NCBI RefSeq assembly: GCF_000022265.1
Contig: NC_011979.1
Coordinates: 1,890,001-1,922,000 of the forward strand
Direction: 5' to 3'
Origin: Geotalea daltonii FRC-32
GTDB lineage: Bacteria; Desulfobacterota; Desulfuromonadia; Geobacterales; Geobacteraceae
DNA length: 32,000 bases
Of this stretch, positions 12,230 to 28,805 are shown piece by piece. The notes under the pieces are model-generated. The model had not been told where the DNA came from. It made no database searches and was given only the letters and a program-made list of their open reading frames with translations. How positions within the stretch are numbered: the first letter of the stretch is position 1; every line of letters starts with the position of its first letter. Both the position numbers and the translations under genes were made by a program.

Positions 12230-12502
12230 ATGGCCACCGATGAAGCGGATCCGGCTACCAATTACGGTAAAGTTTCCACATCCCGAGATATTGGCAGGAT
12301 TATCCGGATGAAAAGAAAGGAAATCGGCGTTCGTCAGGAAACCGCCGCCGGCATGTCGGGAGTGGGAACGAAATTTTTATCCCAGCTGGAGAACGGCAAA
12401 GAAACCGCTGAACTGGGCAAGACCCTGCAGATTTTACGAAAGCTGGGCCTTGAAGTATACGTGTTTCCCCGTTCCCGAAACCCTCTCAGGGGGGATAAAT
12501 GA
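12230..12502 (+). CDS. hipB: XRE-family HTH antitoxin, HipB-like
   Basis: The 90-aa product has the HTH segment RKEIGVRQETAAGMSGVGTKFLSQLENGK. A GGAAGGAGG RBS precedes the start. There is a 4-nt ATGA overlap with the downstream hipA. Confidence 0.85.
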   Translation: MATDEADPATNYGKVSTSRDIGRIIRMKRKEIGVRQETAAGMSGVGTKFLSQLENGKETAELGKTLQILRKLGLEVYVFPRSRNPLRGDK

Positions 12503-13737
12503 GCCGGAAACTGTTGGTGTTCCTGCAGGACAGCTGCGTGGGCGAACTGGTGCAAAGGGGAGACAGTCTCACTTTCACCTATGCCCCATCCTACTTCTCA
12601 ACAAGCGGTTCGCTTCCCCTTTCCCGTCATTTGCCTATTCGAGCGGCGTCATTTGGACATGAAGAGACCCATGCCTTTTTTGCCAACCTCTTGCCCGAAG
12701 GTGCCATGAGGGACTACCTGGCCCGGCAACTGGGAATTTCGGGCGAAAACGTCTATGCTCTTTTGGAAGCCGCAGGGGGCGATTGCATCGGTGCAATATC
12801 CCTGCGACCCGACGGAACCCCAGGTAAAGGAGGGACCTACAGGCCCATTTCCGAAGAGGAGCTTGCCCTACATCTTGACAATCTGCCGGTCTTTCCCTTT
12901 GCAGGTGAGGAAAATGTGCGCCTGTCTCTGCCCGGTGCCCAGAACAAGGTGCCTATTTATTTCGATGGTACCGGCTTCTTCGTTCCAGAGGGTGACTGTC
13001 CGTCGTCCCATATTATCAAGACACCCATAGAAAAACTGGATGACACAGTCGTTAACGAGGCCTTCTGCATGACGCTGGCAGCGAGAATAGGCCTGCCGGT
13101 ACCTATGGCCAGGCTTGCCTCCATTGCCGGCCGGCAGGTCTACATGATTGAGCGCTATGACAGGAAAAAGATCGATGGCGCTGTGATGCGGTTGCATCAG
13201 GAGGACTTCTGTCAAGCATTGGGAGTTCCACCGAGGCTTAATAAGTACGAGAAGGAGGGTGGCCCTGGATTTCAGGCCTGTTTCAGGCTTGTCGAGGAGT
13301 GGAGCGATGAGCCGCTGCTCGATACTGGAAATCTGCTGAATTGGGCCTTGTTCAATTTCCTTATTGGCAATGCCGATGCCCACGCAAAAAACCTGTCTTT
13401 CCTGTATGCCGGGGGGACCATAAGGCTGGCGCCATTTTACGACCTCATCAGTACGGCCGTATACCCGCGGGTGAACAACAAATTTGCCATGAAAATGGGG
13501 GGGCAAAAAGATCCGCGATATCTTCAGCAGACTGACCTGCAGCATTTTGCCGCTGAAACAGGCATCAATGTCCGTGCTGTCAGGTCAGCATTCCGAGAGT
13601 TGGCAATGGCTTGCGAACCGCTGGCTATGGCCGTGGCAGAGGAGTTTAGGAAAACAGCGGGTCCGGCCCCGATTATAGATGCGATTCTGAAAATCATTGC
13701 AGAACGCACCGGGAAAGTAAGAGCTTTGGCATCCTGA
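12499..13737 (+). CDS. hipA: HipA-family serine/threonine kinase toxin
   Basis: The product has a HipA N-terminal region, LSLPGAQNKVP, the catalytic GNADAHAKNLSF motif and PFYDLIST. Confidence 0.9.
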   Translation: MSRKLLVFLQDSCVGELVQRGDSLTFTYAPSYFSTSGSLPLSRHLPIRAASFGHEETHAFFANLLPEGAMRDYLARQLGISGENVYALLEAAGGDCIGAISLRPDGTPGKGGTYRPISEEELALHLDNLPVFPFAGEENVRLSLPGAQNKVPIYFDGTGFFVPEGDCPSSHIIKTPIEKLDDTVVNEAFCMTLAARIGLPVPMARLASIAGRQVYMIERYDRKKIDGAVMRLHQEDFCQALGVPPRLNKYEKEGGPGFQACFRLVEEWSDEPLLDTGNLLNWALFNFLIGNADAHAKNLSFLYAGGTIRLAPFYDLISTAVYPRVNNKFAMKMGGQKDPRYLQQTDLQHFAAETGINVRAVRSAFRELAMACEPLAMAVAEEFRKTAGPAPIIDAILKIIAERTGKVRALAS

Positions 13738-13839
13738 GCGAGCAACTGGGAGTGCCCCTGTGCAGCGTTAAGGAACAAAAATTGTTGTTTATGTATCTAA
13801 AAATTTATATAAACGAATATTATGTCATATGGAGGGTCT

Positions 13840-15600
13840 ATGAATCCCATTATCACCGTCTTTGTACTATTTGCGACCCTGTTGCCATTTACAGCATTGG
13901 GTACCACAGGCAACGACAGCTGCCGCAACTGCCATGAGAACCCAACGAGGATGCTCGAATTGGGAGCTCAGGCATTCACCATAACCCAGCAGGACGTGGA
14001 ACAGCAGAGCCACATGCCGGCCACTTGCAGCCAGTGTCATTTGGGAAATCCGGATGGGGCAAGCAAGGATGAAGCGCACCAGGGCTTGGCCCGCCTCATA
14101 CGGGTACGGAAGAAGGGCTTGACCGCGGATATTACCCCCCGCAATGCCCCTTTGGAATACGGCAGTAATGAGATGAACAAGATCTATGTAACAACTGAAA
14201 AGGACGGCAAAAGTATCAAGGATGCCAATGTTGTCGCCCTCTCATGGCATGATAAAAGGACCGACAATCTCACCCAGGACTTCGTCACTCTCAAAAAGAC
14301 CTGTGGAACTTGTCACCCACAACAGTTTGAGGAATTCAGCAGAAGCACCATGGGGACCAACGCCAAACAAACCCAGTACAAAAGCTGGATCGACAAAGAT
14401 CGCGGTCCCCACAATTGCGGAACCTGGTTCGACGGCAATTACGCGGAGATACAGGCCAATACCATGACTGCCATACCCAAAGATGGGTATGCCATCAACC
14501 AGAGGGCCTGCAATACCTGTCATGTCGGCTGCCTTGATTGCCATTTCAATCCGCAGCCGCGGAACGCGAAATTCCCGGCAATTGGTGCCCATAGCTTTGT
14601 CAAAACCCCCACATCCCAGAGCTGCTACGGCAACGGTCGTGCTTCCATCTGTCATGCCGGTCCCGAGGACAGGCGGCGCGGAGCCGGCTACTTTGGCGGA
14701 TCATTCTCTTTCCCCGAGGGGAACAAACCCGATGTTCATGTTGCCGCCAATGTGGGTTGTCTCGATTGCCATGAAAGCACAAAAACCAACAAGTCCCTTG
14801 GCCATGGCATGGTCAAACGCCAGGCCTATGATGCCTGCCCCCGTTGTCATTCCAAGGCCGTAAAGAGCCACGTCGCCTCTGTGCATAAAAACCTGTCCTG
14901 TGAAGCCTGCCATATTCAGCAGGTGGCTGGTTACCAGGGCACCTACTGGGGACCCGGCAAAATAGGGGGGGCCGAGACTGCTTTTCTGAAATACAAGGCC
15001 TATTACGGCATCATGCAGGAGCCGATTCTGATCAAGGACCAGAAAGGGAGATGGATTCCCGTCAAGCCTTTCCCCATGGCCGTCATGAACCAGAAGCAGT
15101 CACCCTACAAGCCGGGGCTGCAGTGGCGTTTTCCCGCCACATTGCCGGATCTGCAGCGGACCGACGATGCATGGGCTTACACCGGCCTCCATGGTGGCTT
15201 GCCTGAGAACAACAAGGCGCTGACCTGGCTTCAGATCGACAAGATGTCCCATAAGCTGGGAAAAGCCCGCAGCTGTGATTCATGCCATGAAGACTCGGCA
15301 GGCAGGCAGTTGCAGAAGGTTTCATGGGATTATTCCGATCCCGGTGCTGCCCCATTCAGTGGGTCCCACACGGTGATCGCGGATAAAACAGGCCTTTACA
15401 TAAAAGGGATAAAAGCAGACGAACCGATAATCCTTGAGAAGGGGTATACTCTATCCGCATTTGCGCCATGGTTCTATCTGAAGGAGATCTGGGCAGTGCC
15501 GGGGGATTTCTCCCTGCCCGCCCTTAAAGACCGGGTGAACTACGACCGGACGAAAGGCAACCTTCCCAGGCTGCGGGAAGATGGGATCGTGCACAAGTAG
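13840..15600 (+). CDS. Exported multiheme c-type cytochrome (9 CXXCH motifs)
   Basis: The ATG at 13840 follows GGAGGG, and a signal peptide is present. The motifs are CRNCH, CSQCH, CGTCH, CNTCH, CLDCH, CLDCH, CPRCH, CEACH and CDSCH. Confidence 0.9.
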   Translation: MNPIITVFVLFATLLPFTALGTTGNDSCRNCHENPTRMLELGAQAFTITQQDVEQQSHMPATCSQCHLGNPDGASKDEAHQGLARLIRVRKKGLTADITPRNAPLEYGSNEMNKIYVTTEKDGKSIKDANVVALSWHDKRTDNLTQDFVTLKKTCGTCHPQQFEEFSRSTMGTNAKQTQYKSWIDKDRGPHNCGTWFDGNYAEIQANTMTAIPKDGYAINQRACNTCHVGCLDCHFNPQPRNAKFPAIGAHSFVKTPTSQSCYGNGRASICHAGPEDRRRGAGYFGGSFSFPEGNKPDVHVAANVGCLDCHESTKTNKSLGHGMVKRQAYDACPRCHSKAVKSHVASVHKNLSCEACHIQQVAGYQGTYWGPGKIGGAETAFLKYKAYYGIMQEPILIKDQKGRWIPVKPFPMAVMNQKQSPYKPGLQWRFPATLPDLQRTDDAWAYTGLHGGLPENNKALTWLQIDKMSHKLGKARSCDSCHEDSAGRQLQKVSWDYSDPGAAPFSGSHTVIADKTGLYIKGIKADEPIILEKGYTLSAFAPWFYLKEIWAVPGDFSLPALKDRVNYDRTKGNLPRLREDGIVHK

Positions 15601-16240: not shown

Positions 16241-16582
16241 GTTCCCTCCTTTATGCCATTTGTAGCGGAGTTTAGTTAAATATCTTTATAGCTTTTATTT
16301 TGGGGAGATCAATAGATCTGTGGAGCTTTATTTGTGTGCCGTGTGCGGAGGGACTTTGAGATCAATTGCGCTGGCTACTTGGGCTGTTGCGGTTCTTTTT
16401 AATTTTTCCCATTGAGCTGCGTACATATTTGGTGTAGTGATTAGCATGCGCTGCAGGCGACCGGCAGTTGCAAGATGGGGAGATTTGCCTTTAGAGGCAG
16501 CGGATAAGCAGCAAAAGAGCATACCGGGCACTAAGCGTTCAATATCTAGGCAGAAATATTAATTCACTTATAAGGATAGGCT

Positions 16583-19500
16583 ATGTTCTCCTTTTATCAC
16601 AGTCAGCAGGGTGTAGATAATGTCAGTTATTATAAAGGAACTTTGTTTGAGAGCTTACTGCAACAATATTTGCTCTCAACAGGTTTCGAGGTAGAGCTAC
16701 GGAGGAAGAAGAACAGTCTCGAATATGATATTGAAGGCAAGAACGTTATTACCGGCCAGCACGTCATAGGGGAAGCTAAGGCATATGAAAACCCGATCAA
16801 AGGAAAGGAACTCAGTTCATTTGTCGGGAAGCTCGTACCGCTTGGTTTATTCCAAAATCGCGTTCATGGAATATTCCTATCAACATCGTCGCTCACCCCT
16901 GATGCCGAAGATTATTTTTCGACAGTTAAAAATTACGGTATCACCACAAAAAATGGTAGGGAGTTATACGCAGCCATTGAAGCTGCGCTGAAACTACCGA
17001 CATTTATAGGACTGTCAAAAGTAATTGACAGGGCAGGCTACACTCCGATCACCAGCAGTATTCTTACCACCGATACCGGCATTTTTATAATTGTGATCGC
17101 ACGTGCCCACAGTTCGGGCACACCGGCATATTTTACTATTTTTGACGAACATGGACATCAGATTGACGACACCACCTTCATAAGTGCCGTCCGCGAAGCA
17201 GATCAGTCACTCCAGTCGTTGCAGCCCATTCTTCCCAAGAAACAGTCTAAAAGTGTTACGGCTGAACAGGAACGCAGTATTCCCTTTGGATTAACGCTTG
17301 GTGCAGAATGGACAGACTATTGGCTTCCGGCAAGCCCTCAATACTTTGTTGGCAGGCAGAAGTTTGTTGATAAAGTTTTTTCGCTGTTGAACCAGCGACA
17401 AACGCCAAACATCATTCAAATTAAAAGCCGCTCCGGCGTTGGTAAAAGCTCGGTGTTAGCCTACATAGAAAGCTTGTATTCGACGCTTGGCAATATTACC
17501 GAAATTCATGATGCCCGTGATATCAAGTCAGTTCTTGATGTTTTTGCTGTAGTCCAGAGGTTTACTCAATCGGAGCGATTGGCACACGACTTCAAGGAGC
17601 TTGAATCGCAAATTCAAGCATTTTCTGCATCAAACACGGCCGCCCTGAAGCTGTTTTTCGTGGATCAGTTTGAGTCAACATTTCACAATCCCGAAGTTTT
17701 TCATGCTTATGAAAACGTTTTCGACGCCTTCTCGCGCATCGGAAATGGGCTTTACATTCTCATTGCCCGCAAGAACGATCAATTGACGACTTATGACGAT
17801 ACGAAGATAACTCTGGACAAGTTGAATGCAACGTCCAAGTCGTTCGAACTGAAGGATTTTACAAAAGATGAAGCTATACAGCTTATCCGTGAAATTTGTC
17901 GTGAACATACAAAACAGATCGGAAGTGACGTAAGAGCCTATGTTCTCGAATTCGCACAAGGTTTCCCATGGCTGTTGAAACGGACTATGGCGCACATTGT
18001 GCGCCTCGTGAATAAGGGGGTATCGCAAAAAGAGCTTTTCGCAACAGGCTTGAGGCTGGATGACCTGTTTGATGAGGAGTTGGAGGGGCTAGATGAGATC
18101 GAAAGGGATTATATTGCCCGAATTGCCAGTCGCTTGCCTGCAGATTACAACCAACTGCAAAGACAGTTTGATGAAGACCCGTTACTACCAAAAATTTTGG
18201 ACAAATTAACCCGCTCACGACTGCTGCGTCTAACCGGGGCTACCTATGACACCTACAATGATGTTTTCAAAGAATACCTAAAATACAACAAGCTGCCGGA
18301 GTTCAGTTACTTGTGCATCTACAGGCAACCTCCGAGCACTGTTTTAGCAGCATTCCACGATTCATTCGAAAAAGATCCCTTTACTTCGGAAGAGCTGGCA
18401 AAAATCCTGAAAAAGACCCAAGGTAGCGTTTTCAATATCGTCAGGGAGCTCCGAAGTTTTAACCTGATAGTGGCCGATGGCGACAGATGGTGCATACCGC
18501 AAACCGTCAAAGACATATACAATCGCGGCCGCCTTGGCGAATACATCAGACGCCAATTGCTGGAAAATGAGATCGTCTCTCGCCTGATTAGACACATATC
18601 CCAAGATGGCCGATTTCCTAGCGACAGGTTGACCGATTATCTGCAAGAACAATTTCCGTTTATAGAAGCAGCACCAAAGACCTGGGCCATCTATGCAGCT
18701 ATCTTGCGGGCATGGATGACTGAAACCAAGCTGCTTCAATTTACGAATGACTCATATTTAGTGCAGCCTGTCGAAGCTCGTGCCACGCAAATCGAGAACC
18801 TCGGCAATATGATTGCCACTCCAACGCTAGGAAGAAGAGGTGCATACTCACAACACCAATCTTCTTATATATTCTTGCCGAACTGCGCAAATTTAAAATC
18901 TGTGGAGCAGGCGCTTGTCTCCCTGCAAAACGGGGTGCCAATTGCTGAAATAAAGGACCGCACCACCCTGACTGACCTAAGAAATGGCGGATGGCTTATA
19001 AACAATTGCCCAACTTCCGCAACCGGGGAAGAATTTAGAACTCTGGTAAAAGAAGCGATTACGAAGGAATGCTTCAACCCGGTCTGGGAGGCAGTTAGGA
19101 CTGGCCAACCAGCATTGGTGGCTTTCCAGCAGCTGGCAGGTGGATATTCAGAGGAGACCTTGAAATGGAAACTGAAAATGTTAATCAGATGGGCTAAGGA
19201 ACTTGGCATCATTGCAAAAAGCAGGGTTTCCGTTACCACACATAAAAGGATTTCCCGGCCGCTTCATTCAACGCGAAAAGGCACTACCCCGCCTGTGCCG
19301 TCAAAGCCGTCACATCCATTTGAAGGTGTTTCCTACGAGCAAATCAAACACTACATTGAAGAACACTTCCCTAAAGTTAGGGGCGTCACCAGAATTGATA
19401 TTGCTCGCACTAATACTCATGGGTGGGAGATTAGAATCAGGCGACGAGGTAACAACATCAACGAGTTTTTCTCAGATATGGGATCTGGCGGGATCAGGGA

Positions 19501-19822
19501 GGCCTATGAAACCGCGATTGCACGGCTTAACGTTTTGGAGTTGGATGCAAACTTACGTCCATATACTCGTTCAGAGCTTTCAGGTTTGGCTTCTAAACGA
19601 AACACATCTGGCATTGTAGGGGTAAGAAAATCCAAGCGTTCAAACAAAAGCGAAGGGTACGATTCCTGGATAGCTTTTGGAGCACCTCGCCCTGGGGATC
19701 ACATAGTGAAGAGCTTCTCTATCAATAAGTATGGAGAGGAAGAGGCAAAGCGGCTTGCCATTGCGCAGAGGAAGGAATGGGAGGAGCAGATGATGGCGTA
19801 TGAACGTGAGCAAAGAAAATGA
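16583..19822 (+). CDS. Multidomain protein: Mrr-like PD-(D/E)xK nuclease, P-loop STAND/Orc-Cdc6-like NTPase, winged-helix region and two AP2-like DNA-binding domains
   Basis: The 1079-aa ORF lies in AT-rich DNA. Residues 15-130 carry FESLL...EYDIEG...IGEAKAY (D49, E64, K66). FVGRQ starts at aa 255. Walker A is SRSGVGKSS (aa 282-290) and Walker B is LFFVDQFE (aa 357-364). GFPWLL lies at aa 460-465. The AP2-like segments are GVTRI...HGWEIRIRRRG...REAYETAIA and SGIVGVRKS...YDSWIAFG...FSINKYGEEEAKRLAIAQRKEW. Confidence 0.85.
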   Translation: MFSFYHSQQGVDNVSYYKGTLFESLLQQYLLSTGFEVELRRKKNSLEYDIEGKNVITGQHVIGEAKAYENPIKGKELSSFVGKLVPLGLFQNRVHGIFLSTSSLTPDAEDYFSTVKNYGITTKNGRELYAAIEAALKLPTFIGLSKVIDRAGYTPITSSILTTDTGIFIIVIARAHSSGTPAYFTIFDEHGHQIDDTTFISAVREADQSLQSLQPILPKKQSKSVTAEQERSIPFGLTLGAEWTDYWLPASPQYFVGRQKFVDKVFSLLNQRQTPNIIQIKSRSGVGKSSVLAYIESLYSTLGNITEIHDARDIKSVLDVFAVVQRFTQSERLAHDFKELESQIQAFSASNTAALKLFFVDQFESTFHNPEVFHAYENVFDAFSRIGNGLYILIARKNDQLTTYDDTKITLDKLNATSKSFELKDFTKDEAIQLIREICREHTKQIGSDVRAYVLEFAQGFPWLLKRTMAHIVRLVNKGVSQKELFATGLRLDDLFDEELEGLDEIERDYIARIASRLPADYNQLQRQFDEDPLLPKILDKLTRSRLLRLTGATYDTYNDVFKEYLKYNKLPEFSYLCIYRQPPSTVLAAFHDSFEKDPFTSEELAKILKKTQGSVFNIVRELRSFNLIVADGDRWCIPQTVKDIYNRGRLGEYIRRQLLENEIVSRLIRHISQDGRFPSDRLTDYLQEQFPFIEAAPKTWAIYAAILRAWMTETKLLQFTNDSYLVQPVEARATQIENLGNMIATPTLGRRGAYSQHQSSYIFLPNCANLKSVEQALVSLQNGVPIAEIKDRTTLTDLRNGGWLINNCPTSATGEEFRTLVKEAITKECFNPVWEAVRTGQPALVAFQQLAGGYSEETLKWKLKMLIRWAKELGIIAKSRVSVTTHKRISRPLHSTRKGTTPPVPSKPSHPFEGVSYEQIKHYIEEHFPKVRGVTRIDIARTNTHGWEIRIRRRGNNINEFFSDMGSGGIREAYETAIARLNVLELDANLRPYTRSELSGLASKRNTSGIVGVRKSKRSNKSEGYDSWIAFGAPRPGDHIVKSFSINKYGEEEAKRLAIAQRKEWEEQMMAYEREQRK

Positions 19823-19857
19823 TCTCCAAGAGAACGAACGAAAGAGGGGAAACAAGG

Positions 19858-19918
19858 GGGTCGCATCTTCAAATTCTAATTTTGAGTTTTGGAGACGCAA
19901 CCCCATATGCCTCCTCCA
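19858..19918 (+). repeat. 61-nt structured repeat, copy 1
   Basis: The sequence is GGGTCGCATCTTC-loop-GGAGACGCAACCC-CATATGCCTCCTCCA. It matches the copy at 22451-22511 at 56 of 61 positions. Confidence 0.9.
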
Positions 19919-20010
19919 GTCAATTGTTGGTGGCAGTTCTTAGCTATTCTCTATTTGTAATGCAAGTAGTCACGGTCCTTCTCGGAAAACCGAAAGATCT
20001 ATAAGAGACC

Positions 20011-22425: not shown

Positions 22426-22450
22426 AGACATTGCCTGCGAGGAAAAAAGA

Positions 22451-22511
22451 GGGTCGCGTTTCCAAATTCCAATTTTGAGTTTCGGAGACGCAACCCCATA
22501 TGCCTCCTCCA
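22451..22511 (+). repeat. 61-nt structured repeat, copy 2
   Basis: The sequence is GGGTCGCGTTTCC-loop-GGAGACGCAACCC-CATATGCCTCCTCCA. It is the partner of 19858-19918. Confidence 0.9.
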
Positions 22512-22515
22512 ATAA

Positions 22516-22887
22516 TTACGCAGCTTTGGAGCCGGAGAGTGCAATATGTATCTCTATATCATCCCACGGTACCAAAACATTATTTTCCTCGTCCTTGGCA
22601 ATGAGACCAAGCTCAATCAATCTGGCGACGGAAGAGTGGACGTTGCTGTAATTGCGCCCCAGGGTTTTCGCTAGTCGATAGACAGACTGCGGTCCTGTTC
22701 TCTTCAGGGTATCAAGAAGCTCCATGCGCTTCGGTGTCAATTCGGCGAACAGTTGAGCCGCGGTGGCAAAGTTAAGACGATAATCGGCGGGAGCAAGTTC
22801 CTTGCCGCTATCCATGGCAGCCGCGAGAGCATGGAGTTCGCCGGCAGTTTCCTTGAAACTGGATATGCCAATGATTGCTTTAGTCAT
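22516..22887 (-). CDS. MarR/wHTH-type DNA-binding protein, probable antitoxin (TumA-like)
   Basis: The 123-aa product contains LTPKRMELLDTLKRTGPQSVYRLAKTLGRNYSNVHSSVARLIELGLI, which reads as a winged helix. It shares a 4-nt ATGA overlap with the upstream small gene. Confidence 0.7.
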   Translation of the reverse strand: MTKAIIGISSFKETAGELHALAAAMDSGKELAPADYRLNFATAAQLFAELTPKRMELLDTLKRTGPQSVYRLAKTLGRNYSNVHSSVARLIELGLIAKDEENNVLVPWDDIEIHIALSGSKAA

Positions 22888-23183
22888 GGTTTTTCTCCTG
22901 TCAGCCGCTCAATGTCGGCATAGAAATCCTGGACAAGCTGTCCGAAGGAGCTGAAGTGATAGGGCTGTTCCCTTGAACCGTAGTGGATATGATCTCCTTT
23001 GCCGGACTCATTGTCGTAGCGGACGATGCAGTCACCATTTCTTCCGCAGTAAAGGCGATATTTAAAGCCATGAGGCCGCTCAAGGCTCGGTTTCGGCAAC
23101 TGCCATATCACGGCTTCTATGATGAGGCCGGAAGGATATTTGTCCTTTTTTGCATATACCAGCGTAGCGTCCATGTATTGCAT
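22884..23183 (-). CDS. DUF6516 / TumE-like putative toxin
   Basis: The product has IIEAVIWQLP...PHGFKYRLYCG...IVRYDNESGKGDHIHYG...PYHFSS...LVQDFYADI, a pattern I recall for the TumE family. The start is uncertain: ATG 23183 is preferred on length, with ATG 23213 and TTG 23240 as alternatives. Confidence 0.6.
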   Translation of the reverse strand: MQYMDATLVYAKKDKYPSGLIIEAVIWQLPKPSLERPHGFKYRLYCGRNGDCIVRYDNESGKGDHIHYGSREQPYHFSSFGQLVQDFYADIERLTGEKP

Positions 23184-23382
23184 TATATGCAATATGTGGT
23201 GCTGGTGCAACATAACAAATTTGCAATGTAACCTTTCCAAAGGCGGGCGATATTAAACGACCTGATATGTATACTCTGCGAGAGAAAAGGGGGTAGGCTA
23301 CTTTTCTGCCCAGTGGCATTAAAAAACCGGGGGTGCCTCCTAACCGATTATGACGAAACTAATAACTGAGGGGGAAAATGCT

Positions 23383-25361: not shown

Positions 25362-28300
25362 TTACAGGGTTACGGTTATGTAGTTGTATTTCGTGTCCAC
25401 CAGCACGCCACCTTTGTAGACAAGGACGGTGAGCTTCTTGATGCCGGTGGTGCCATAGGTATGGGGCGCAGTTGCCGAACTGCCGGTTCCCCCCACATTG
25501 GCCAGGACGGTTGAAGTACCGTCAGCCCAGAATATCTTCAGGCTGTCGTGGTCCTTGAGGTTGGCGAAGGTATAGGTATTGGCAACCCCTCGTGTGGCGG
25601 TGGTGGGGGAAATGGTCATTCCGGTCGCCGGTGGATTGACCACATAAAACGATTTTGTTGCCGTGGCAGTTTTTCCTTCCTCATCGGTTACCTTTAGCGA
25701 AACAGTCCAGTTGCCGGTGCTGGTGAAGGTCTTGCTGATGGAAGAGGCGCTGGCCGTGGTACCGTCGGTTATGGTCATGCTGTAGGTAAAAGTCCCATTG
25801 GTGTTGACGCTGGTGTCGGCTGCCAATGTGTACGGGGCGTTGACCAGCAGCTGGTTGCCCGCCGTGTTGGGATCTGCATCGGGGAAGGCTGCGGAGAATT
25901 GGGCCACCGGATTAACCCCTATCCCTACTTTTGTCTGCTGTGCCGGGTCGCCGAAGCTGTTCAGGTAGGCAACCCATGTTTTCCTGTCATTTGTAGCAAT
26001 GGCTACCCCGGTCAGATCAGTGGCTGCGCCAGTGTATGTCTTGTCTACCCACAAAGATCCTGCCAGGCCCAGTGGTCCGACGTCACTCTGTGGATGCAGG
26101 CGGATAGTGTAACCGGGACGTGCTTCGATGAGTAGACCGGTGCCGGCAGCGTTGACCCTGATGCCGAATTCCGGCTGGCCACCGGTGTAAGCGGTGCCGT
26201 CCCAGGTGCCGGTAAAGGAAGTACCCAGGTTGGTCAACAGGCCTGTCATGTCAGTAACCAGTGCAGATACCTGTTTGGTACGGGCTACCACATCTCCCGC
26301 AGCATTCTTCGTCTCGATCTTCAACAGCCAGCCCTGGCTTGTGGTACTGGTGCTGGTAGGTGCCGGGAAGGTGATGGCGGTGCCGGTGATGCTGTTGTTG
26401 AAGGCAGTGTTGCGTGTCTTGAAGGCATTTTCATACAACCCTTCGCTTCTGTCGATGTCGCGGATGGTCGTCCCATTGGAGGCGAATTGAACGGCGATTG
26501 AGCGGACACCGCTTTTCTCCTTGACGCCAGGGTGGAAGTCGGAAGGCTGGGTCGAACCGTTAACGGAGGCAAACGGTGTCACCTGTGTGCCGGCGGTCCA
26601 GGAGATATTAAGGGTATCACCCTTGACCATGAACTTGCCGTTGTAGAAGCCTCCGGCAGCGGTGTCGCCTGCAGTTCCTGCAATTGTATTACTGGTTGAA
26701 CCCTTGTGGCAATCGGCACAACCACCTGCACCCCAGGCCTTAGCCGCCGGGGAGATGTCATGGTTGGTTTTGAAGGTGACCCCCATGAAGGAAAGCCTGG
26801 TCACATGGGTTTTGGTGTTGTCCGATGTCGACCCGGGAGATGCTTTGAGGCCCAGCTGATATTCAAGGTCACGATCAATGGCGCTGAGATGATCGGTAAT
26901 ATCAGCTGCTGTAACAGTGCCGAGCTGTGTCAGTGCCACCAGTGGCTGTCCACTTCTCGGTCCCTGGCTGTAGGTGTTGGCTCTGTTTATTTTGGCCACG
27001 TGGGTCTGGAGCAGTGCATCCATGCCACCCCCCCGGCCGTCGTTGTTGGCGTCGAAGTTGACGTCATTCTTGTCTCTCCAGAAGGCTGACGTGGAAAGGT
27101 TTGCGGCGTAGAGTTTGGTCCCCTGCCAGGACATGAAGTTGTTGTTGGTCATGTTCTGGCGCGTTACATTCTCGTTTTCATGGTCGGCAAGGCGTCCTTC
27201 TGCATCGGTACCGGTGCCGTCAACCATGGCGCCGCCGGTGAAGTTTCCTTTGCGGGAGTGGCAGGCTTCGCAAGCCATGAGGTCGATGTGGCTGGCATTG
27301 GCTACGCCGTTCATGGTGCCGCCCTGTTGGACGATCTTCGCCGTCAGCCCTTTTGCCTGGTGCGATGCTGTCGGGTTCGGTGCGTTGAGGGTGTCGTAGG
27401 TTATTACACTTTGTGTCGTCGGATCATAGTCGCCGCCATAGATATGGCAGCCGGCGCAGTTCTTCGTGCCGTTGTCCGTGCCGTTCCACAGAGACCCGTA
27501 AGGAGCGTTGCCCTTGGCAGGATCGCACTGTCCCAGTTTCTTGGAGTCGTCCCCCGGACTGGCGGCACTGATATTGTTAAAGCCATAGGTGCCCTTGAGA
27601 CCACTGAAGCCGGAAGTCCCCACTTTGGAGTAGTCGGCGTCCTTGCGCTTGTGGCAGCCCATGCAGCCTATGCTGTAATGGATCTCGGAATCGCTTCGCC
27701 AAGAGTCGCCCCGCTTTTTCCAATCGACGGCGTGCTCTGCCATATGGCAGCTGACGCAGTTGTTGGAATCGGGTGTCGACAGAATGTTGGCGGTAACGGT
27801 GCTTGCCAGCTTCAGGGCGGTAGCATCGCCATTGGCCACAACCCTGGTCGCGTCATAGGTGACATTAATGCCGTCCGTGGCAGATGCAGTGCCCAGATGG
27901 GCGCCGGTTACACGGGAGGCATCAAACTTGCCGGTACGAACTGCCTTCTTGCGCTCCTCCCAGGAATAATCCTTCAGATGGCACATGAGGCAGTCCATTT
28001 CCAGGACCCCGGTCTGGCTGTAATCGTTGACGGTAGGCTCGAAGCTGGCAGGACTACCGTCGGTGTTGAAGCCATCTCCCCTGGTGCCATAGCTGTCAAT
28101 AAAATAGTTGAAGGCCGTAACTGCTGCACCGAAGACATAATCGCGCAGGGAAGTTCGGGTTTCAGGGCTCTTGTTGGGGACATACTCGTTGGCGCCGCCC
28201 CCCACATGGCATTCGCCGCAGTCCCGCATGGAACCGGCCATGGAGTTGTCGACCTTCTGCTTGAACAGAATTGCGTCGGCATAATTGAATGGGGTATAGG

Positions 28301-28805
28301 TGCTGAACGGGACTTTTTTGAAAATGGCATTTGTTGCATCATAGGTGGTGCCGGCACCATCCTGAAATAATCTCGCCAACTGGCGAGCAGAGGGTGGTCA
28401 CCACGCCCCCACATGGCCGGGGCCCTGGACCCAGTTCTTGCCCTGGGGGCCGGCGCCGCTGACTACAGGGTCTTTTGAATCATCAGGATTCCAGCTGTTC
28501 CAGCCCCTTTGCTCGTTGGCTGCCAGCTGGGCATGGTAGCTGTGCCGCTCGATCTGGTCGTAGCTTTGCAGTGCCTTGCCTGTGGATGGGGCAATAGTTG
28601 AACCATTGTGGCAGGCTCCACAGGTGTTCTTCATACTGAATGCCTTGGTGCTGCCGGGGGCGATAATATTGCTTCCTGCATCGCGTAACAGAATGTTGTT
28701 ATGGGCAGGGTTGTAGGCCGCAGCTGTTCCGGCAACCAGCAATACTGCACCGGAAATCAGCCCGAGCCTGAATCTGCCCATGGATGAGTTGATCGTTCTC
28801 TTCAT
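25362..28805 (-). CDS. Exported octaheme c-type cytochrome with two C-terminal PKD domains, interrupted by one in-frame TGA (28398-28400): selenoprotein candidate or pseudogene
   Basis: Track ORFs 28398-28805 (signal peptide plus CGACH) and 25362-28379 (7 CXXCH, TTG start, no RBS, no signal peptide) share one frame. They are separated only by TGA plus 6 sense codons. The PKD motifs include WADGTS...APHTYG. Confidence 0.65.

What the first reader, a model, noticed from the sequence alone, without database searches (positions are those of the whole stretch)
16583..19822. Mrr-like nuclease, STAND-like NTPase, wHTH and tandem AP2 fusion: candidate undescribed single-gene defence system
Seen in the sequence: one 1079-aa ORF in visibly AT-richer DNA combines four parts. 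(i) An N-terminal PD-(D/E)xK module of the Mrr_cat type (FESLL, D49 in EYDIEG, E64-x-K66 in GEAKA). (ii) A P-loop NTPase with the FVGRQ lead-in, Walker A GVGKS (K288), Walker B VDQFE (D361) and a GFPWLL motif, as in Orc/Cdc6-like and STAND ATPases. (iii) About 400 aa of helical, winged-helix-like repeats. (iv) Two C-terminal AP2-like DNA-binding domains (aa ~933-985 and ~1008-1068). Established knowledge: antiviral STAND (Avs) and bacterial NLR-like proteins pair an N-terminal effector, including Mrr-like nucleases, with a central STAND NTPase and a C-terminal sensor that is usually TPR-like. Inference: this protein keeps the effector and switch logic but replaces the usual protein-sensing repeats with sequence- or structure-specific DNA-binding modules. 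That suggests an NTP-gated nuclease triggered by foreign nucleic acid. It sits among TA modules, gene fragments and repeats, as defence genes often do. I do not recognise this exact architecture as a named system.
Basis: partly seen in the sequence, partly recalled or inferred. Interest (0 to 1): 0.85.

Follow-up and report, generated by a model that had tools for sequence, protein, structure and literature searches.

The report
Avs-like immune nuclease with AP2 tail
This Geobacter gene encodes a one-protein, NLR-like candidate anti-phage nuclease from a family already catalogued among defence STAND ATPases, and what is unusual is an extra pair of DNA-binding AP2 domains on its end, one of several DNA-directed tails this family has picked up.

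Summary
Window 16583-19822 (+) is an intact 1079-aa ORF (Geotalea daltonii FRC-32 WP_012646813.1) in low-GC DNA. It has an Mrr_cat nuclease and an nSTAND1 P-loop NTPase (both above Pfam cut-offs), a tandem winged-helix array, and two C-terminal AP2 domains. D49/E64/K66 and the Walker A/B residues are invariant in 116 homologues. The best structural match is Avs4.

The first ~893 aa form a complete protein family of ~880 aa that is widespread and horizontally mobile. RefSeq annotates it "nSTAND1 domain-containing NTPase/restriction endonuclease". An E. coli member is a seed in the 2026 Lee et al. survey of defence-associated STANDs. The AP2 pair does not replace the sensor. It is a clade-specific add-on, found in 9 of 116 sequences that form one clade. 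It also exists as a free-standing ~150-aa unit (about 2,000 representative proteins) and in phage HNH homing endonucleases.

Other lineages carry 4xHA domains, AT-hook-like basic tails or clamp-binding-like QLSLF motifs at the same position. This suggests the tails direct the enzyme to DNA.

The likeliest function is an NTP-gated, oligomerisation-activated defence nuclease, with the AP2 tail acting as a DNA tether or co-sensor. No experiment exists. I rate it a new variant of a known kind, of moderate interest.

The parts
16572..16576 (+). Shine-Dalgarno-like AAGGA, 6 nt upstream of the ATG
   Evidence: Read directly from the sequence.
16583..19822 (+). Complete gene: 1079 codons plus stop. 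It encodes Geotalea daltonii FRC-32 ACM20084.1 / WP_012646813.1.
   Evidence: ORF list. Exact-sequence look-up. 270 homologues. Nucleotide homology to the closest relative covers only 16679-19829.
16583..16987 (+). aa 1-135: Mrr_cat PD-(D/E)xK nuclease, the effector. Motifs are E23, D49 and E64-x-K66.
   Evidence: Pfam PF04471, 31 bits against a cut-off of 21. E47/Y48/D49/E64/A65/K66 are invariant in 116 sequences. The model shows an alpha-beta-beta-beta-alpha-beta core with pLDDT ~90.
16988..17332 (+). aa 136-250: small beta-rich domain (aa ~141-206) plus a linker. It has no family assignment.
   Evidence: The AF2 model shows strands 153-163, 167-175 and 183-187 and helix 197-206. No Pfam hit. 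Identity to short forms is lower, 31-41%.
17333..17917 (+). aa 251-445: P-loop nucleotide-binding domain of the nSTAND1 clade. Walker A is G285-x-G-K288-S-S, Walker B is D361-Q-F-E364, and R396/K397 are conserved.
   Evidence: Pfam PF20703, 39.1 bits against a cut-off of 27.1. Invariant residues. Foldseek matches Avs4, ORC/Cdc6, RuvB, RFC and Avs5. The same motifs occur in seed 191 of Lee et al. 2026.
17918..18307 (+). aa 446-575: helical domain (with the GFPWLL motif and H471) and winged-helix domain (R549, G552, YDTY 555-558). These complete the NOD module.
   Evidence: Secondary structure of the AF2 model. This is the most conserved part of the protein, at 67% and 77% identity to short forms.
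18308..19237 (+). aa 576-885: tandem winged-helix array. It is the variable C-terminal region shared by the whole family and the presumptive sensor.
   Evidence: Separate AF2 model, pLDDT 86. The best Foldseek match is SelB WH1-4 (E 2e-3), followed by MarR/IclR/DtxR wHTH regulators. No match reaches E<=1e-3 in PDB or BFVD. It is the least conserved region, at 27-36% identity.
19238..19333 (+). aa 886-917: disordered, basic linker (net +5). The short-form family ends just before it, at about aa 893.
   Evidence: pLDDT 30-53. The alignment shows short forms ending at ...LGIIxxKR[YF]xY. Charge calculation.
19334..19552 (+). aa 918-990: N-terminal helix plus AP2-type domain R1. R1 is a divergent subtype with consensus I-x-R-I-D...T-H-G-W-x-V-R-x-x-R-R-G...F-S-D...G-G.
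   Evidence: Three strands (935-964) plus a helix (971-986) in the model. 10 of 60 homologous segments hit Pfam AP2. hhalign against R2 gives 96.4% probability.
19553..19819 (+). aa 991-1079: AP2 domain R2 followed by a long C-terminal helix. Net charge +7.
   Evidence: Pfam AP2, E 3.3e-7, 30.9 bits, just under the cut-off of 33.3. Close relatives of the R1-R2 unit reach 67-95 bits. The whole tail aligns to an HNH homing endonuclease of phages AR9/PBS1.
16250..20000 (.). Low-GC segment (0.44-0.47 against 0.51-0.59) that coincides with the gene. This is a signature of horizontal acquisition.
   Evidence: Composition profile. Homology to the Geobacteraceae MAG locus L015 is limited to the gene and stops 7 nt after the stop codon.

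Best explanation
The gene encodes a self-contained, horizontally mobile, NLR-like (antiviral-STAND-type) immune nuclease.

Inferred mechanism, by analogy with Avs3, Avs4 and Avs7: the protein rests as an inactive monomer. The variable C-terminal winged-helix array engages an infection cue. The nSTAND1 NTPase module (NBD, helical domain, winged-helix domain) then binds NTP and drives oligomerisation. This brings the N-terminal Mrr-type PD-(D/E)xK domains together into an active nuclease that cuts DNA, which stops the phage and probably the cell.

The two C-terminal AP2 domains are not the core sensor. They are a DNA-binding module captured once by this clade, joined through a disordered basic linker. 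Most likely they hold the enzyme on DNA, or bias it to particular DNA, which raises its local concentration at the substrate or at the place where the cue appears.

Shown here: the domain identities, the conserved catalytic residues, the family structure, mobility, the lack of a partner gene, and the independent origin of the tail.

Inferred: defence function, oligomerisation, the nature of the trigger, and the role of the tail.
For: - Domains pass curated cut-offs. D49/E64/K66, Walker A K288 and Walker B D361/E364 are invariant in 116 sequences at 38-92% identity.
- The full-length AF2 model (pLDDT 83) is most similar to Avs4 (8DGF, E 1e-11, ~1130 aligned columns). EfAvs5 is also among the hits.
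- The conservation profile is that of a STAND receptor: the NOD core is most conserved and the C-terminal array is most variable.
- An E. coli family member is in the curated seed set of defence-related STANDs of Lee et al. 2026. nSTAND1 was defined as a conflict-system clade.
- Contexts are defence-rich or mobile: Mrr + Eco57I-type methylase + XhoI; SIR2-HerA + nSTAND3/5; ICE or integrase islands with TIR or HEPN; IS clusters.
- 133 neighbours from 20 loci share no conserved partner.
- Distribution is patchy across at least 12 phyla. Homology between two Geobacteraceae genomes covers the gene only. The gene sits in a low-GC segment.
- The tail is an add-on. The AP2-tailed proteins form one clade whose sister is a true short form. 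A free-standing gene is 70% identical to the tail. About 2,043 representative proteins carry the R1-R2 unit.
- Other lineages carry 4xHA domains, AT-hook-like basic tails or QLSLF-type motifs at the same position.
Against: - No member of the family has a published phage-defence phenotype that I could find. The stored tables of Lee et al. are cut before the list of tested proteins.
- PADLOC v2 Avs models do not hit the protein. A family profile finds no solved Avs structure by sequence.
- The sensor is a winged-helix array rather than the TPR-like repeats of most Avs families. Winged helices typically bind nucleic acids, so a direct DNA-recognition (restriction-like) mode is not excluded.
- In this window the gene is not in a defence island.
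- Some neighbours of homologues are housekeeping genes, and I did not quantify defence enrichment against a background.
- Several plasmid copies look disrupted.
Confidence: 0.6

Rival explanations
1. It is an NTP-dependent restriction enzyme of the type IV or Mrr kind, not an abortive sensor. In this reading the winged-helix array, with the AP2 pair in this clade, directly recognises foreign or modified DNA. The P-loop module assembles the enzyme on that DNA, and the Mrr domain cleaves the invader selectively, so the cell survives.
For: - Mrr_cat is the catalytic domain of modification-dependent restriction enzymes, and RefSeq names the family 'restriction endonuclease'.
- The sensor folds are winged helices of the MarR/IclR/SelB type, which usually bind nucleic acids.
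- DNA-directed tails recur at the C-terminus: AP2, HA, AT-hook-like and clamp-motif-like.
- One homologue sits beside Mrr and a type II R-M system.
- The Lee et al. screens found some Avs families with no protein trigger.
Against: - There is no Mrr_N or other known modified-base reader (SRA, YTH, etc.).
- The NTPase belongs to a STAND clade, not to the McrB/GTPase or helicase motors used by known NTP-dependent restriction enzymes. The best full-length structural match is Avs4.
- The winged-helix array is only weakly basic, with net charge 0 to +3 per sub-domain.
- The only PADLOC hit is a marginal mREase_IV match (E 0.017).
Confidence: 0.2
2. The AP2 tail is an integrated decoy or bait rather than a DNA tether. 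In this reading it copies a common stand-alone host AP2 regulator that some phage factor targets, and binding of that factor to the tail activates the STAND switch, as in plant NLRs with integrated domains.
For: - The tail is a near-complete copy of an autonomous ~150-aa protein type that is abundant as a stand-alone gene. One free-standing gene is 70% identical to the tail.
- The tail is attached through a long disordered linker.
- Stand-alone copies sit in ordinary chromosomal contexts, like regulators.
Against: - No phage factor that targets AP2 proteins is known.
- The Arg/Trp-rich sheet residues that contact DNA in AP2 domains are conserved in the tail (R13, W24, R27, R29, R30 of R1; R23, W37 of R2), as expected for real DNA binding.
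- The other tails in the family (AT-hook-like, HA, clamp-motif-like) point to DNA targeting, not to baits.
Confidence: 0.07
3. It is a selfish, homing-type nuclease gene. In this reading the AP2 pair gives long-site DNA recognition, as in phage HNH-AP2 homing endonucleases, and the Mrr domain cuts an empty target site so that the gene can spread.
For: - The whole tail aligns to the DNA-binding part of an HNH homing endonuclease of phages AR9/PBS1 (89% coverage), and R1-R2-HNH fusions exist.
- Homology between two Geobacteraceae genomes is limited to the gene itself.
- The gene sits in a low-GC segment.
Against: - 85 of 116 family members have no DNA-targeting tail, yet they are just as mobile.
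- A 900-aa STAND switch has no role in homing.
- The gene is not inserted within another gene or an intron/intein.
- No copy occurs in 50,697 phage records.
Confidence: 0.05
4. It is a MalT/AfsR-like STAND transcription regulator, or an autoregulator. In this reading the NTPase switch controls DNA binding by the winged-helix and AP2 domains, and the Mrr domain serves only as a binding or degenerate module.
For: - STAND NTPases with DNA-binding output domains (MalT, AfsR, GutR) are a classical architecture (established knowledge; non-immune STAND regulators are also noted in Lee et al.).
- One database source labels a close relative 'DNA-binding transcriptional regulator'.
Against: - The nuclease catalytic triad is invariant across 116 sequences, which argues for an active enzyme.
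- The contexts are mobile and variable, with no conserved target operon.
- Most members lack the AP2 tail.
Confidence: 0.03

Closest known systems
Avs4 (antiviral STAND type 4; structure 8DGF)
   Same: It has the same order of parts: an N-terminal Mrr-like PD-(D/E)xK nuclease, a central STAND NTPase and a large C-terminal sensor, all in one polypeptide. It is the best structural match to the full-length model (E 1e-11, ~1130 aligned columns).
   Different: - Sequence identity is only 12%, and no sequence-profile link exists.
- The NTPase belongs to the nSTAND1 clade.
- The sensor is a ~310-aa winged-helix array, not a TPR-like solenoid that binds the phage portal.
- The protein is about 880 aa (1079 with the tail), against about 1500-1600 aa for Avs4.
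- The trigger is unknown.
Short-form Mrr_cat-nSTAND1-winged-helix family (~875-890 aa; for example E. coli WP_021536679.1 / WP_021534036.1, Vibrio P0055, Pantoea/Klebsiella P0043)
   Same: aa 1-893 of the window protein are collinear with it at 38-51% identity, and all catalytic and Walker residues are invariant. It is a mobile single gene. It is listed as seed 191 among defence-related STANDs in Lee et al. 2026.
   Different: The window protein and eight relatives add a ~185-aa tail: a basic linker, a helix and two AP2 domains. I found no published phenotype for either form.
Stand-alone bacterial R1-R2 double-AP2 proteins and AP2-HNH homing endonucleases (for example phage AR9/PBS1)
   Same: The tail matches these end to end, with the same fixed R1-then-R2 order. 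Close relatives pass the Pfam AP2 cut-off.
   Different: Those are ~150-aa proteins, concatenated units, or fusions to HNH nucleases. Here the unit is fused to the C-terminus of a STAND immune-type nuclease. I did not see this combination among the top hits of either tail search, and 'AP2' does not occur in the text or stored tables of the STAND survey.
MalT-type STAND regulators (STAND NTPase plus a C-terminal DNA-binding domain)
   Same: A STAND switch is followed by a C-terminal DNA-binding module (established knowledge).
   Different: The window protein carries a conserved, apparently active nuclease effector. It has no LuxR-type HTH and no conserved regulon context.

Membership tests
STAND NTPase superfamily, nSTAND1 clade (Pfam PF20703) | Match to the family profile at or above the curated cut-off | tested here: met
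   39.1 bits against a cut-off of 27.1, at aa 251-446. The same hit occurs in P0004, P0008, P0053 and P0055.
STAND NTPase superfamily, nSTAND1 clade (Pfam PF20703) | Intact Walker A (GxxGxGK[ST]) and Walker B (hhhhD[DE]) motifs, conserved among homologues | tested here: met
   G285, G287, K288, S289, S290 and D361, Q362, F363, E364 are invariant in 116 sequences.
STAND NTPase superfamily, nSTAND1 clade (Pfam PF20703) | Tripartite NOD module: nucleotide-binding domain, helical domain, winged-helix domain | tested here: met
   The AF2 model shows the NBD at 251-445, a helical bundle at 448-530 and a winged helix at 535-570. Foldseek matches Avs4, ORC/Cdc6 and Avs5.
STAND NTPase superfamily, nSTAND1 clade (Pfam PF20703) | NTP-dependent oligomerisation | not testable with these tools
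   This needs biochemistry or cryo-EM.
Antiviral STAND (Avs) in the broad sense | N-terminal immune-type effector, central STAND and a large C-terminal sensor in one protein | tested here: met
   Mrr_cat, then nSTAND1, then ~310 aa of winged-helix array plus the tail.
Antiviral STAND (Avs) in the broad sense | Membership of a named Avs family by profile (Avs1-5 models in PADLOC v2) | tested here: not met
   No AVAST/Avs model hit; only mREase_IV at E 0.017. There is no sequence match to solved Avs structures.
Antiviral STAND (Avs) in the broad sense | Listed among defence-associated STAND clades in the systematic survey (Lee et al. 2026) | tested here: inconclusive
   A family member is seed 191 in Supplementary Table 1. 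The clade, defence-score and tested-protein tables are cut off in the stored copy.
Antiviral STAND (Avs) in the broad sense | Association with defence or mobile islands, with no housekeeping operon | tested here: inconclusive
   Eight sampled contexts are defence-rich or mobile. There is no conserved neighbour among 133 ORFs. I did not compute enrichment against a background, and the window itself is not a defence island.
Antiviral STAND (Avs) in the broad sense | Demonstrated anti-phage activity or trigger-dependent toxicity | not testable with these tools
   I found no publication with the accessions.
Mrr_cat PD-(D/E)xK nuclease (Pfam PF04471) | Profile match at or above the cut-off, plus the catalytic D...(D/E)xK motif | tested here: met
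   31 bits against a cut-off of 21. D49, E64 and K66 are invariant and E23 is nearly invariant. The model shows the alpha-beta-beta-beta-alpha-beta core.
Mrr-type (type IV) restriction enzyme | N-terminal Mrr_N winged-helix or another modified-DNA reader domain | tested here: not met
   No Mrr_N, SRA or similar hit. The nuclease is at the extreme N-terminus.
AP2/ERF DNA-binding domain (Pfam PF00847) | Profile match at or above the cut-off of 33.3 bits | tested here: not met
   R2 scores 30.9 bits (E 3.3e-7) and R1 has no hit. Homologues of the same R1-R2 unit reach 35-95 bits, so the shortfall reflects divergence.
AP2/ERF DNA-binding domain (Pfam PF00847) | Three-stranded antiparallel sheet packed on one helix, with conserved Arg/Trp on the sheet | tested here: met
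   Model: strands 935-964 with helix 971-986, and strands 1014-1047 with helix 1052-1078. R, W and R-x-R-R are invariant in R1, and R and W in R2. R1 against R2 by hhalign gives 96.4%. 10 of 60 R1 segments hit AP2.
AP2/ERF DNA-binding domain (Pfam PF00847) | Sequence-specific DNA binding | not testable with these tools
   This needs EMSA, SELEX or a protein-binding microarray.

The most novel reading that the evidence does not exclude
This Mrr-nSTAND1 family may be a bacterial NLR-like receptor that works on DNA or the replisome rather than on free phage proteins. In that reading the tandem winged-helix array senses a nucleic-acid or DNA-bound cue. Different lineages have independently added modules that dock the receptor onto DNA (double AP2, 4xHA, AT-hook-like tails) or onto the sliding clamp (C-terminal QLSLF-type motifs). 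The AP2-tailed clade would then be a STAND immune nuclease with built-in sequence-specific DNA recognition.
Probability: 0.2. Interest if true: 0.8.

Novelty: new variant of a known kind. Interest (0 to 1): 0.45.

Why it matters
Characterised bacterial NLR-like (Avs) receptors recognise phage proteins through large repeat sensors. Whether any of them read nucleic acids or DNA-bound states is still open, and the 2026 survey left several active families without a trigger.

This family has a sensor built from winged helices. Its C-terminus has repeatedly acquired DNA-directed or clamp-directed modules. That gives a concrete, testable candidate for DNA-associated sensing by a STAND protein. The natural variants (no tail, AP2, HA, basic, clamp-motif) amount to a ready-made experiment.

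E. coli carries the short form, so the tests are feasible. If the AP2 tail is only a tether, the finding is a modest addition to a known class.

Tried and rejected
1. Shallow profile comparison of tail repeat 1 against repeat 2 (9 sequences each) gave 2.5% probability. It was rescued only with deep alignments.
2. PDB sequence searches with the family profile and with the R1/R2 profiles gave nothing significant.
3. PADLOC and NCBIfam on the protein gave no real hit.
4. PHROGs on the tail and on stand-alone AP2 proteins gave nothing for the stand-alone forms.
5. Rfam on the whole window gave no family.
6. Accession searches of the literature gave no paper.
7. I tried to learn the clade number, or whether the E. 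coli seed was tested in Lee et al. The stored tables are truncated and the Nature version holds no supplements.
8. I checked for a split two-gene version. P0293 turned out to be a contig-end fragment. P0143 is a true free-standing tail gene, but it has no nSTAND neighbour.
9. The neighbour survey through PADLOC and Pfam returns only family counts. It shows there is no conserved partner, but it gives no enrichment statistic.
10. Foldseek of the sensor array against PDB and viral structures found no close analogue.
11. I rejected the idea that the window is a defence island.

Full report
**What is there.** Window 16583-19822 (+) is one intact ORF of 1079 codons. An AAGGA ribosome-binding site lies 6 nt upstream of the ATG. 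GC content falls to 0.44-0.47 over roughly 16.2-20.0 kb, against 0.51-0.59 on both sides. An exact-sequence look-up identifies the product as Geotalea (Geobacter) daltonii FRC-32 ACM20084.1 / WP_012646813.1 / UniProt B9M6M4. It is already annotated 'AP2 domain DNA-binding protein' or 'restriction endonuclease'.

**Check of the four parts.** Pfam gives the following:
- Mrr_cat at aa 20-129: 31.0 bits, cut-off 21.
- nSTAND1 at aa 251-446: 39.1 bits, cut-off 27.1.
- AP2 at aa 1009-1066: 27.3 bits on the whole protein and 30.9 bits on the isolated tail, E 3.3e-7, cut-off 33.3.

In an alignment of 116 family members, the following are invariant: E47, Y48, D49, E64, A65, K66; the Walker A residues G285, G287, K288, S289, S290; the Walker B residues D361-Q-F-E364; R396/K397; and G460-F-P462.

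An AlphaFold2 model built on that alignment has mean pLDDT 83. It shows, in order:
- a PD-(D/E)xK core (aa 1-135);
- a small unassigned beta-rich domain (aa ~141-206);
- the P-loop domain (aa 251-445);
- a helical domain (aa 448-530);
- a winged helix (aa 535-570);
- further winged-helix-like units up to aa ~873;
- a disordered linker (aa 886-911);
- two units of three strands plus one helix (935-964/971-986 and 1014-1047/1052-1078).

**Is the first 'AP2' real?** It has no Pfam hit, and a shallow profile comparison with the second repeat failed (2.5%). A profile of the whole tail searched against 1.84 billion representative proteins found 2,043 matches, 583 of them at E<=1e-10. Most are 145-170-aa proteins that match end to end. 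In these proteins the two repeat types always occur in the order R1 then R2. Ten of 60 R1-equivalent segments hit Pfam AP2 on their own, and no other family recurs. With deep alignments, R1 and R2 are homologous at 96.4% probability, E 1.4e-9. Relatives with several units reach 67-95 bits on AP2. So the 'tandem AP2' call is correct, with R1 a divergent subtype.

**The middle region.** Modelled alone (pLDDT 86), aa 572-893 has no close structural analogue. No hit reaches E<=1e-3 in PDB or in the viral library. The best matches are the four-winged-helix array of SelB (E 2e-3, 333 columns), MarR/IclR/DtxR-type regulators, and a phage TrmB-like regulator. 'Winged-helix-like repeats' is therefore a fair description.

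**The family.** A homology search gave 270 hits.
- Only eight are full length (1078-1109 aa, 54-92% identity).
- The bulk are ~875-890-aa proteins that cover 82% of the query and end at ...LGIIxxKR[YF]xY, equivalent to about aa 893.
- They come from Vibrio, Pantoea/Klebsiella, Pseudomonas, Sporomusa, Bdellovibrio and many metagenomes. They are labelled 'restriction endonuclease' or 'nSTAND1 domain-containing NTPase'.
- A scan of species-representative genomes found 28 loci in at least 12 phyla. This is a lower bound, because the scan relies on two peptide patterns.
- In E. coli the short form is in 35 of 5,426 complete genomes, always on the chromosome. In strain Z247 it lies between IS66 and IS30 copies beside the pap island.
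- Thirteen plasmid records carry it or distant relatives, and some copies look broken. None of 50,697 phage records carries it.
- Conservation by domain is typical of a STAND receptor. Identity to short forms is 77% for the winged-helix domain, 67% for the helical domain, 53% for Mrr, 46% for the NBD, and only 27-36% for the C-terminal array.

**Context and mobility.** Sampled neighbourhoods of homologues:

| Homologue | Neighbourhood |
|---|---|
| P0008 | Mrr, a 464-aa unknown, the gene, an Eco57I-type methylase, XhoI |
| P0004 | SIR2 + HerA and an nSTAND3/5 protein |
| P0007 | A PIN toxin on one side, proC-yggT-divIVA on the other |
| P0055 (Vibrio) | Integrases, a relaxase, HipA |
| P0043 (Pantoea) | TraG/TraU, a TIR protein, an integrase |
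| P0053 | Integrase, TIR, HEPN_AbiU2 |
| P0072 (Sporomusa) | IS clusters |

Among the 133 nearest ORFs at 20 further loci there are 118 different Pfam families, and none occurs more than three times. They include ResIII, C-5 methylases, XhoI and integrases, but also tRNA synthetases, RecA and CobN. So there is no conserved partner and no conserved operon. I could not compute a formal enrichment.

The closest relative, in a Geobacteraceae MAG, shares 87.5% nucleotide identity with the window only over 16679-19829. That homology stops 7 nt past the stop codon, and the downstream DNA is unrelated. In the window itself the neighbours are ordinary Geobacter genes: sigma-54 regulators, multihaem cytochromes, a Kazal-like protein, an M3 peptidase and a LysR regulator. 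There are also a HipBA module (12230-13737) and a TumE-type pair (22516-23240). No other defence system is recognised.

**The tail is an add-on.**
- On a neighbour-joining tree of the core region, the nine AP2-tailed proteins form one clade. Its sister, P0009, is a genuine short form with a complete C-terminus.
- A free-standing gene (P0143, locus L044 4424-5059) is 70% identical to the tail from its N-terminal helix through both AP2 domains. It has an upstream stop codon and no nSTAND gene nearby.
- The tail also aligns over 89% of its length to the DNA-binding part of an HNH homing endonuclease of Bacillus phages AR9/PBS1, and to small AP2 proteins on Agrobacterium/Rhizobium plasmids.
- R1-R2-HNH fusions exist. 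A stand-alone copy sits in an ordinary chromosomal context.

**The C-terminal slot.** Across 116 members, 85 have no extension. Nine have the double AP2. Three, forming a separate clade, have four HA domains (183 bits). At least eight have 16-48-aa tails with net charge +8 to +17, some with a GRPRKK/GRPKKK AT-hook-like core.

Five of 133 end in Q[LMI][SDN][LI]F within the last 14 residues (QLSLF twice, QMSLF, QLNIF, QIDLF). The looser pattern is expected 0.07 times by chance, and the strict pattern occurs nowhere else in ~119,000 positions. From my own knowledge this is the consensus beta-sliding-clamp-binding motif, QL[SD]LF. Four of the five sequences look related, so this amounts to at least two lineages.

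Taken together, the variable C-terminus repeatedly acquires modules that point to DNA or the replisome. That is my main reason for reading the AP2 pair as a DNA-targeting accessory rather than as the primary sensor.

**Comparison with known systems.**
- The full-length model is most similar to Avs4 (8DGF, E 1e-11, ~1130 columns, 12% identity). Next come ORC/Cdc6, RuvB and RFC, and EfAvs5 is also listed.
- By sequence there is no link to named Avs families.
- nSTAND1 was defined by Kaur et al. 2021 as a novel STAND clade in counter-invader systems (PMC8195603). Their 2020 paper lists Mrr-like REases among effectors of such systems (PMC7159879). Neither paper mentions AP2.
- Lee et al. (bioRxiv 10.64898/2026.01.04.697583; Nature 2026, PMC13581612) classify 589 STAND clades, 198 of them defence-associated, and at least 90 sensor families. 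They name Avs8 and Avs10-24.
- Their Supplementary Table 1 lists E. coli WP_021536679.1 (NTPase aa 255-480) as seed 191. Its sequence carries IKSRSGVGKSS, VDQFESTF, ARKNDQLTTYD and AQGFPWLLKRT, so it is a short-form member of this family.
- The stored tables are cut off before the clade assignments and the list of tested proteins. I therefore cannot say whether the family has an Avs number or a phenotype. 'AP2' does not occur in the paper or in the stored tables.

**Mechanism.** The best-supported reading (confidence about 0.6) is an Avs-like, single-protein immune nuclease.
- The variable winged-helix array binds an infection cue.
- The nSTAND1 module switches to an NTP-bound, oligomeric state.
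- The clustered Mrr domains then cleave DNA.
- The AP2 tail, on its flexible basic linker, keeps the protein on DNA or at particular sites.

Domain identities, residue conservation, family structure, mobility and the tail's independent origin are shown. Defence function, oligomerisation, the trigger and the tail's role are inferred.

The main rival (about 0.2) is a restriction-like enzyme that recognises foreign or modified DNA directly through the winged-helix and AP2 modules. Less likely rivals are an integrated-decoy tail, a homing-type selfish nuclease, and a MalT-like regulator.

**Verdict.** The effector-switch-sensor logic and the Avs analogy hold. However, the AP2 domains are a clade-specific addition to a complete, already catalogued Mrr-nSTAND1-winged-helix family, so they do not replace the sensor. 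The claim of an undescribed system is too strong for the core.

What does appear new is the AP2-tailed variant and the wider pattern of DNA- or clamp-directed tails in this family. I rate it a new variant of a known kind, with interest 0.45. The most novel reading not excluded is a STAND receptor that senses or is licensed on DNA or the replisome. I give that a probability of about 0.2, and it would deserve an interest of about 0.8.

Noticed in passing
window 19848-19918 and 22441-22511 (+): A 71-nt direct repeat (90% identical) brackets the M3 peptidase gene and a 163-aa ORF. The first copy starts 19 nt after the point where homology to the related Geobacteraceae locus ends. Each copy folds into a long imperfect hairpin on either strand (z -3.8 to -5.3), and differences between the copies preserve pairing. 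No Rfam family matches. It may be a REP- or MITE-like element.
   Followed up: partly
family members P0030, P0086, P0092, P0093, P0096 (C-termini): Five of 133 family members end in QIDLF, QMSLF, QLSLF, QLNIF and QLSLF within the last 14 residues. This matches the beta-sliding-clamp-binding consensus QL[SD]LF. The chance expectation is 0.07, and the strict motif is absent elsewhere in the proteins.
   Followed up: partly
family members P0010, P0073, P0084, P0091, P0098, P0100, P0103, P0104 (C-termini): These members have short lysine/arginine-rich tails (15-48 aa, net charge +5 to +17) at the same position as the AP2 tail. Two have an AT-hook-like GRPRKK/GRPKKK core.
   Followed up: no
P0053, P0101, P0111 (~1185 aa); loci L012/L013 10001-13558: A separate clade of the family carries four HA (helicase-associated, PF03457) domains as its C-terminal tail instead of AP2. 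It sits in an island with an integrase, a TIR protein and HEPN_AbiU2.
   Followed up: partly
L044 4424-5059 (P0143): A free-standing 211-aa gene is 70% identical to the tail of the window protein (helix + R1 + R2). It lies between a YkuD and an AhpC gene, with no nSTAND nearby. This is evidence of a recent fusion or fission of the module.
   Followed up: yes
tail profile A5 against representative proteins; phage AR9 KU878088.1 151362-151823: The R1-R2 double-AP2 unit is a widespread fixed-order module (2,043 representative proteins). It occurs alone, concatenated 2-4 times, fused to HNH, and inside an HNH homing endonuclease annotated next to the RNA polymerase beta subunit gene of jumbo phages AR9/PBS1.
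   Followed up: partly
window 12230-13737 (+): A HipB-like HTH antitoxin (90 aa) overlaps a HipA kinase toxin (412 aa; HipA_C 184 bits), forming a complete HipBA module 2.8 kb upstream of the gene. A HipA/HTH pair also lies near the Vibrio homologue.
   Followed up: no
window 22516-23240 (-): A TumE-family toxin (118 aa, 58 bits) overlaps an HVO_A0114-type winged-helix protein (123 aa, 85 bits). This is a probable TA pair 2.7 kb downstream.
   Followed up: no
window aa 136-210 of the protein (16988-17212): A small beta-rich domain lies between the nuclease and the NTPase. It is confidently modelled (pLDDT ~90), matches no family, and is less conserved (31% identity to short forms). Its role is unknown.
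   Followed up: no
L001 8573-9967 and L002 173-1567: In the most distant AP2-tailed relative (P0008, Nitrospirota) a 464-aa ORF with no Pfam hit lies 34 nt upstream on the same strand, in two independent contigs. It may be a lineage-specific partner.
   Followed up: no
plasmid hits H20, H21, H23, H24 (Salmonella/Enterobacter plasmids): Plasmid-borne copies of the short form align in 2-3 pieces, or only partly, and are annotated as several hypothetical proteins. This suggests frameshifted or truncated pseudogenes.
   Followed up: no
window 13822-15600 (+), 25362-28379 (-), 29273-31987 (-): There are three large multihaem c-type cytochromes. Two have PKD domains and MtrC/MtrF-like segments, typical of Geobacter extracellular electron transfer. 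They are unrelated to the finding.
   Followed up: no
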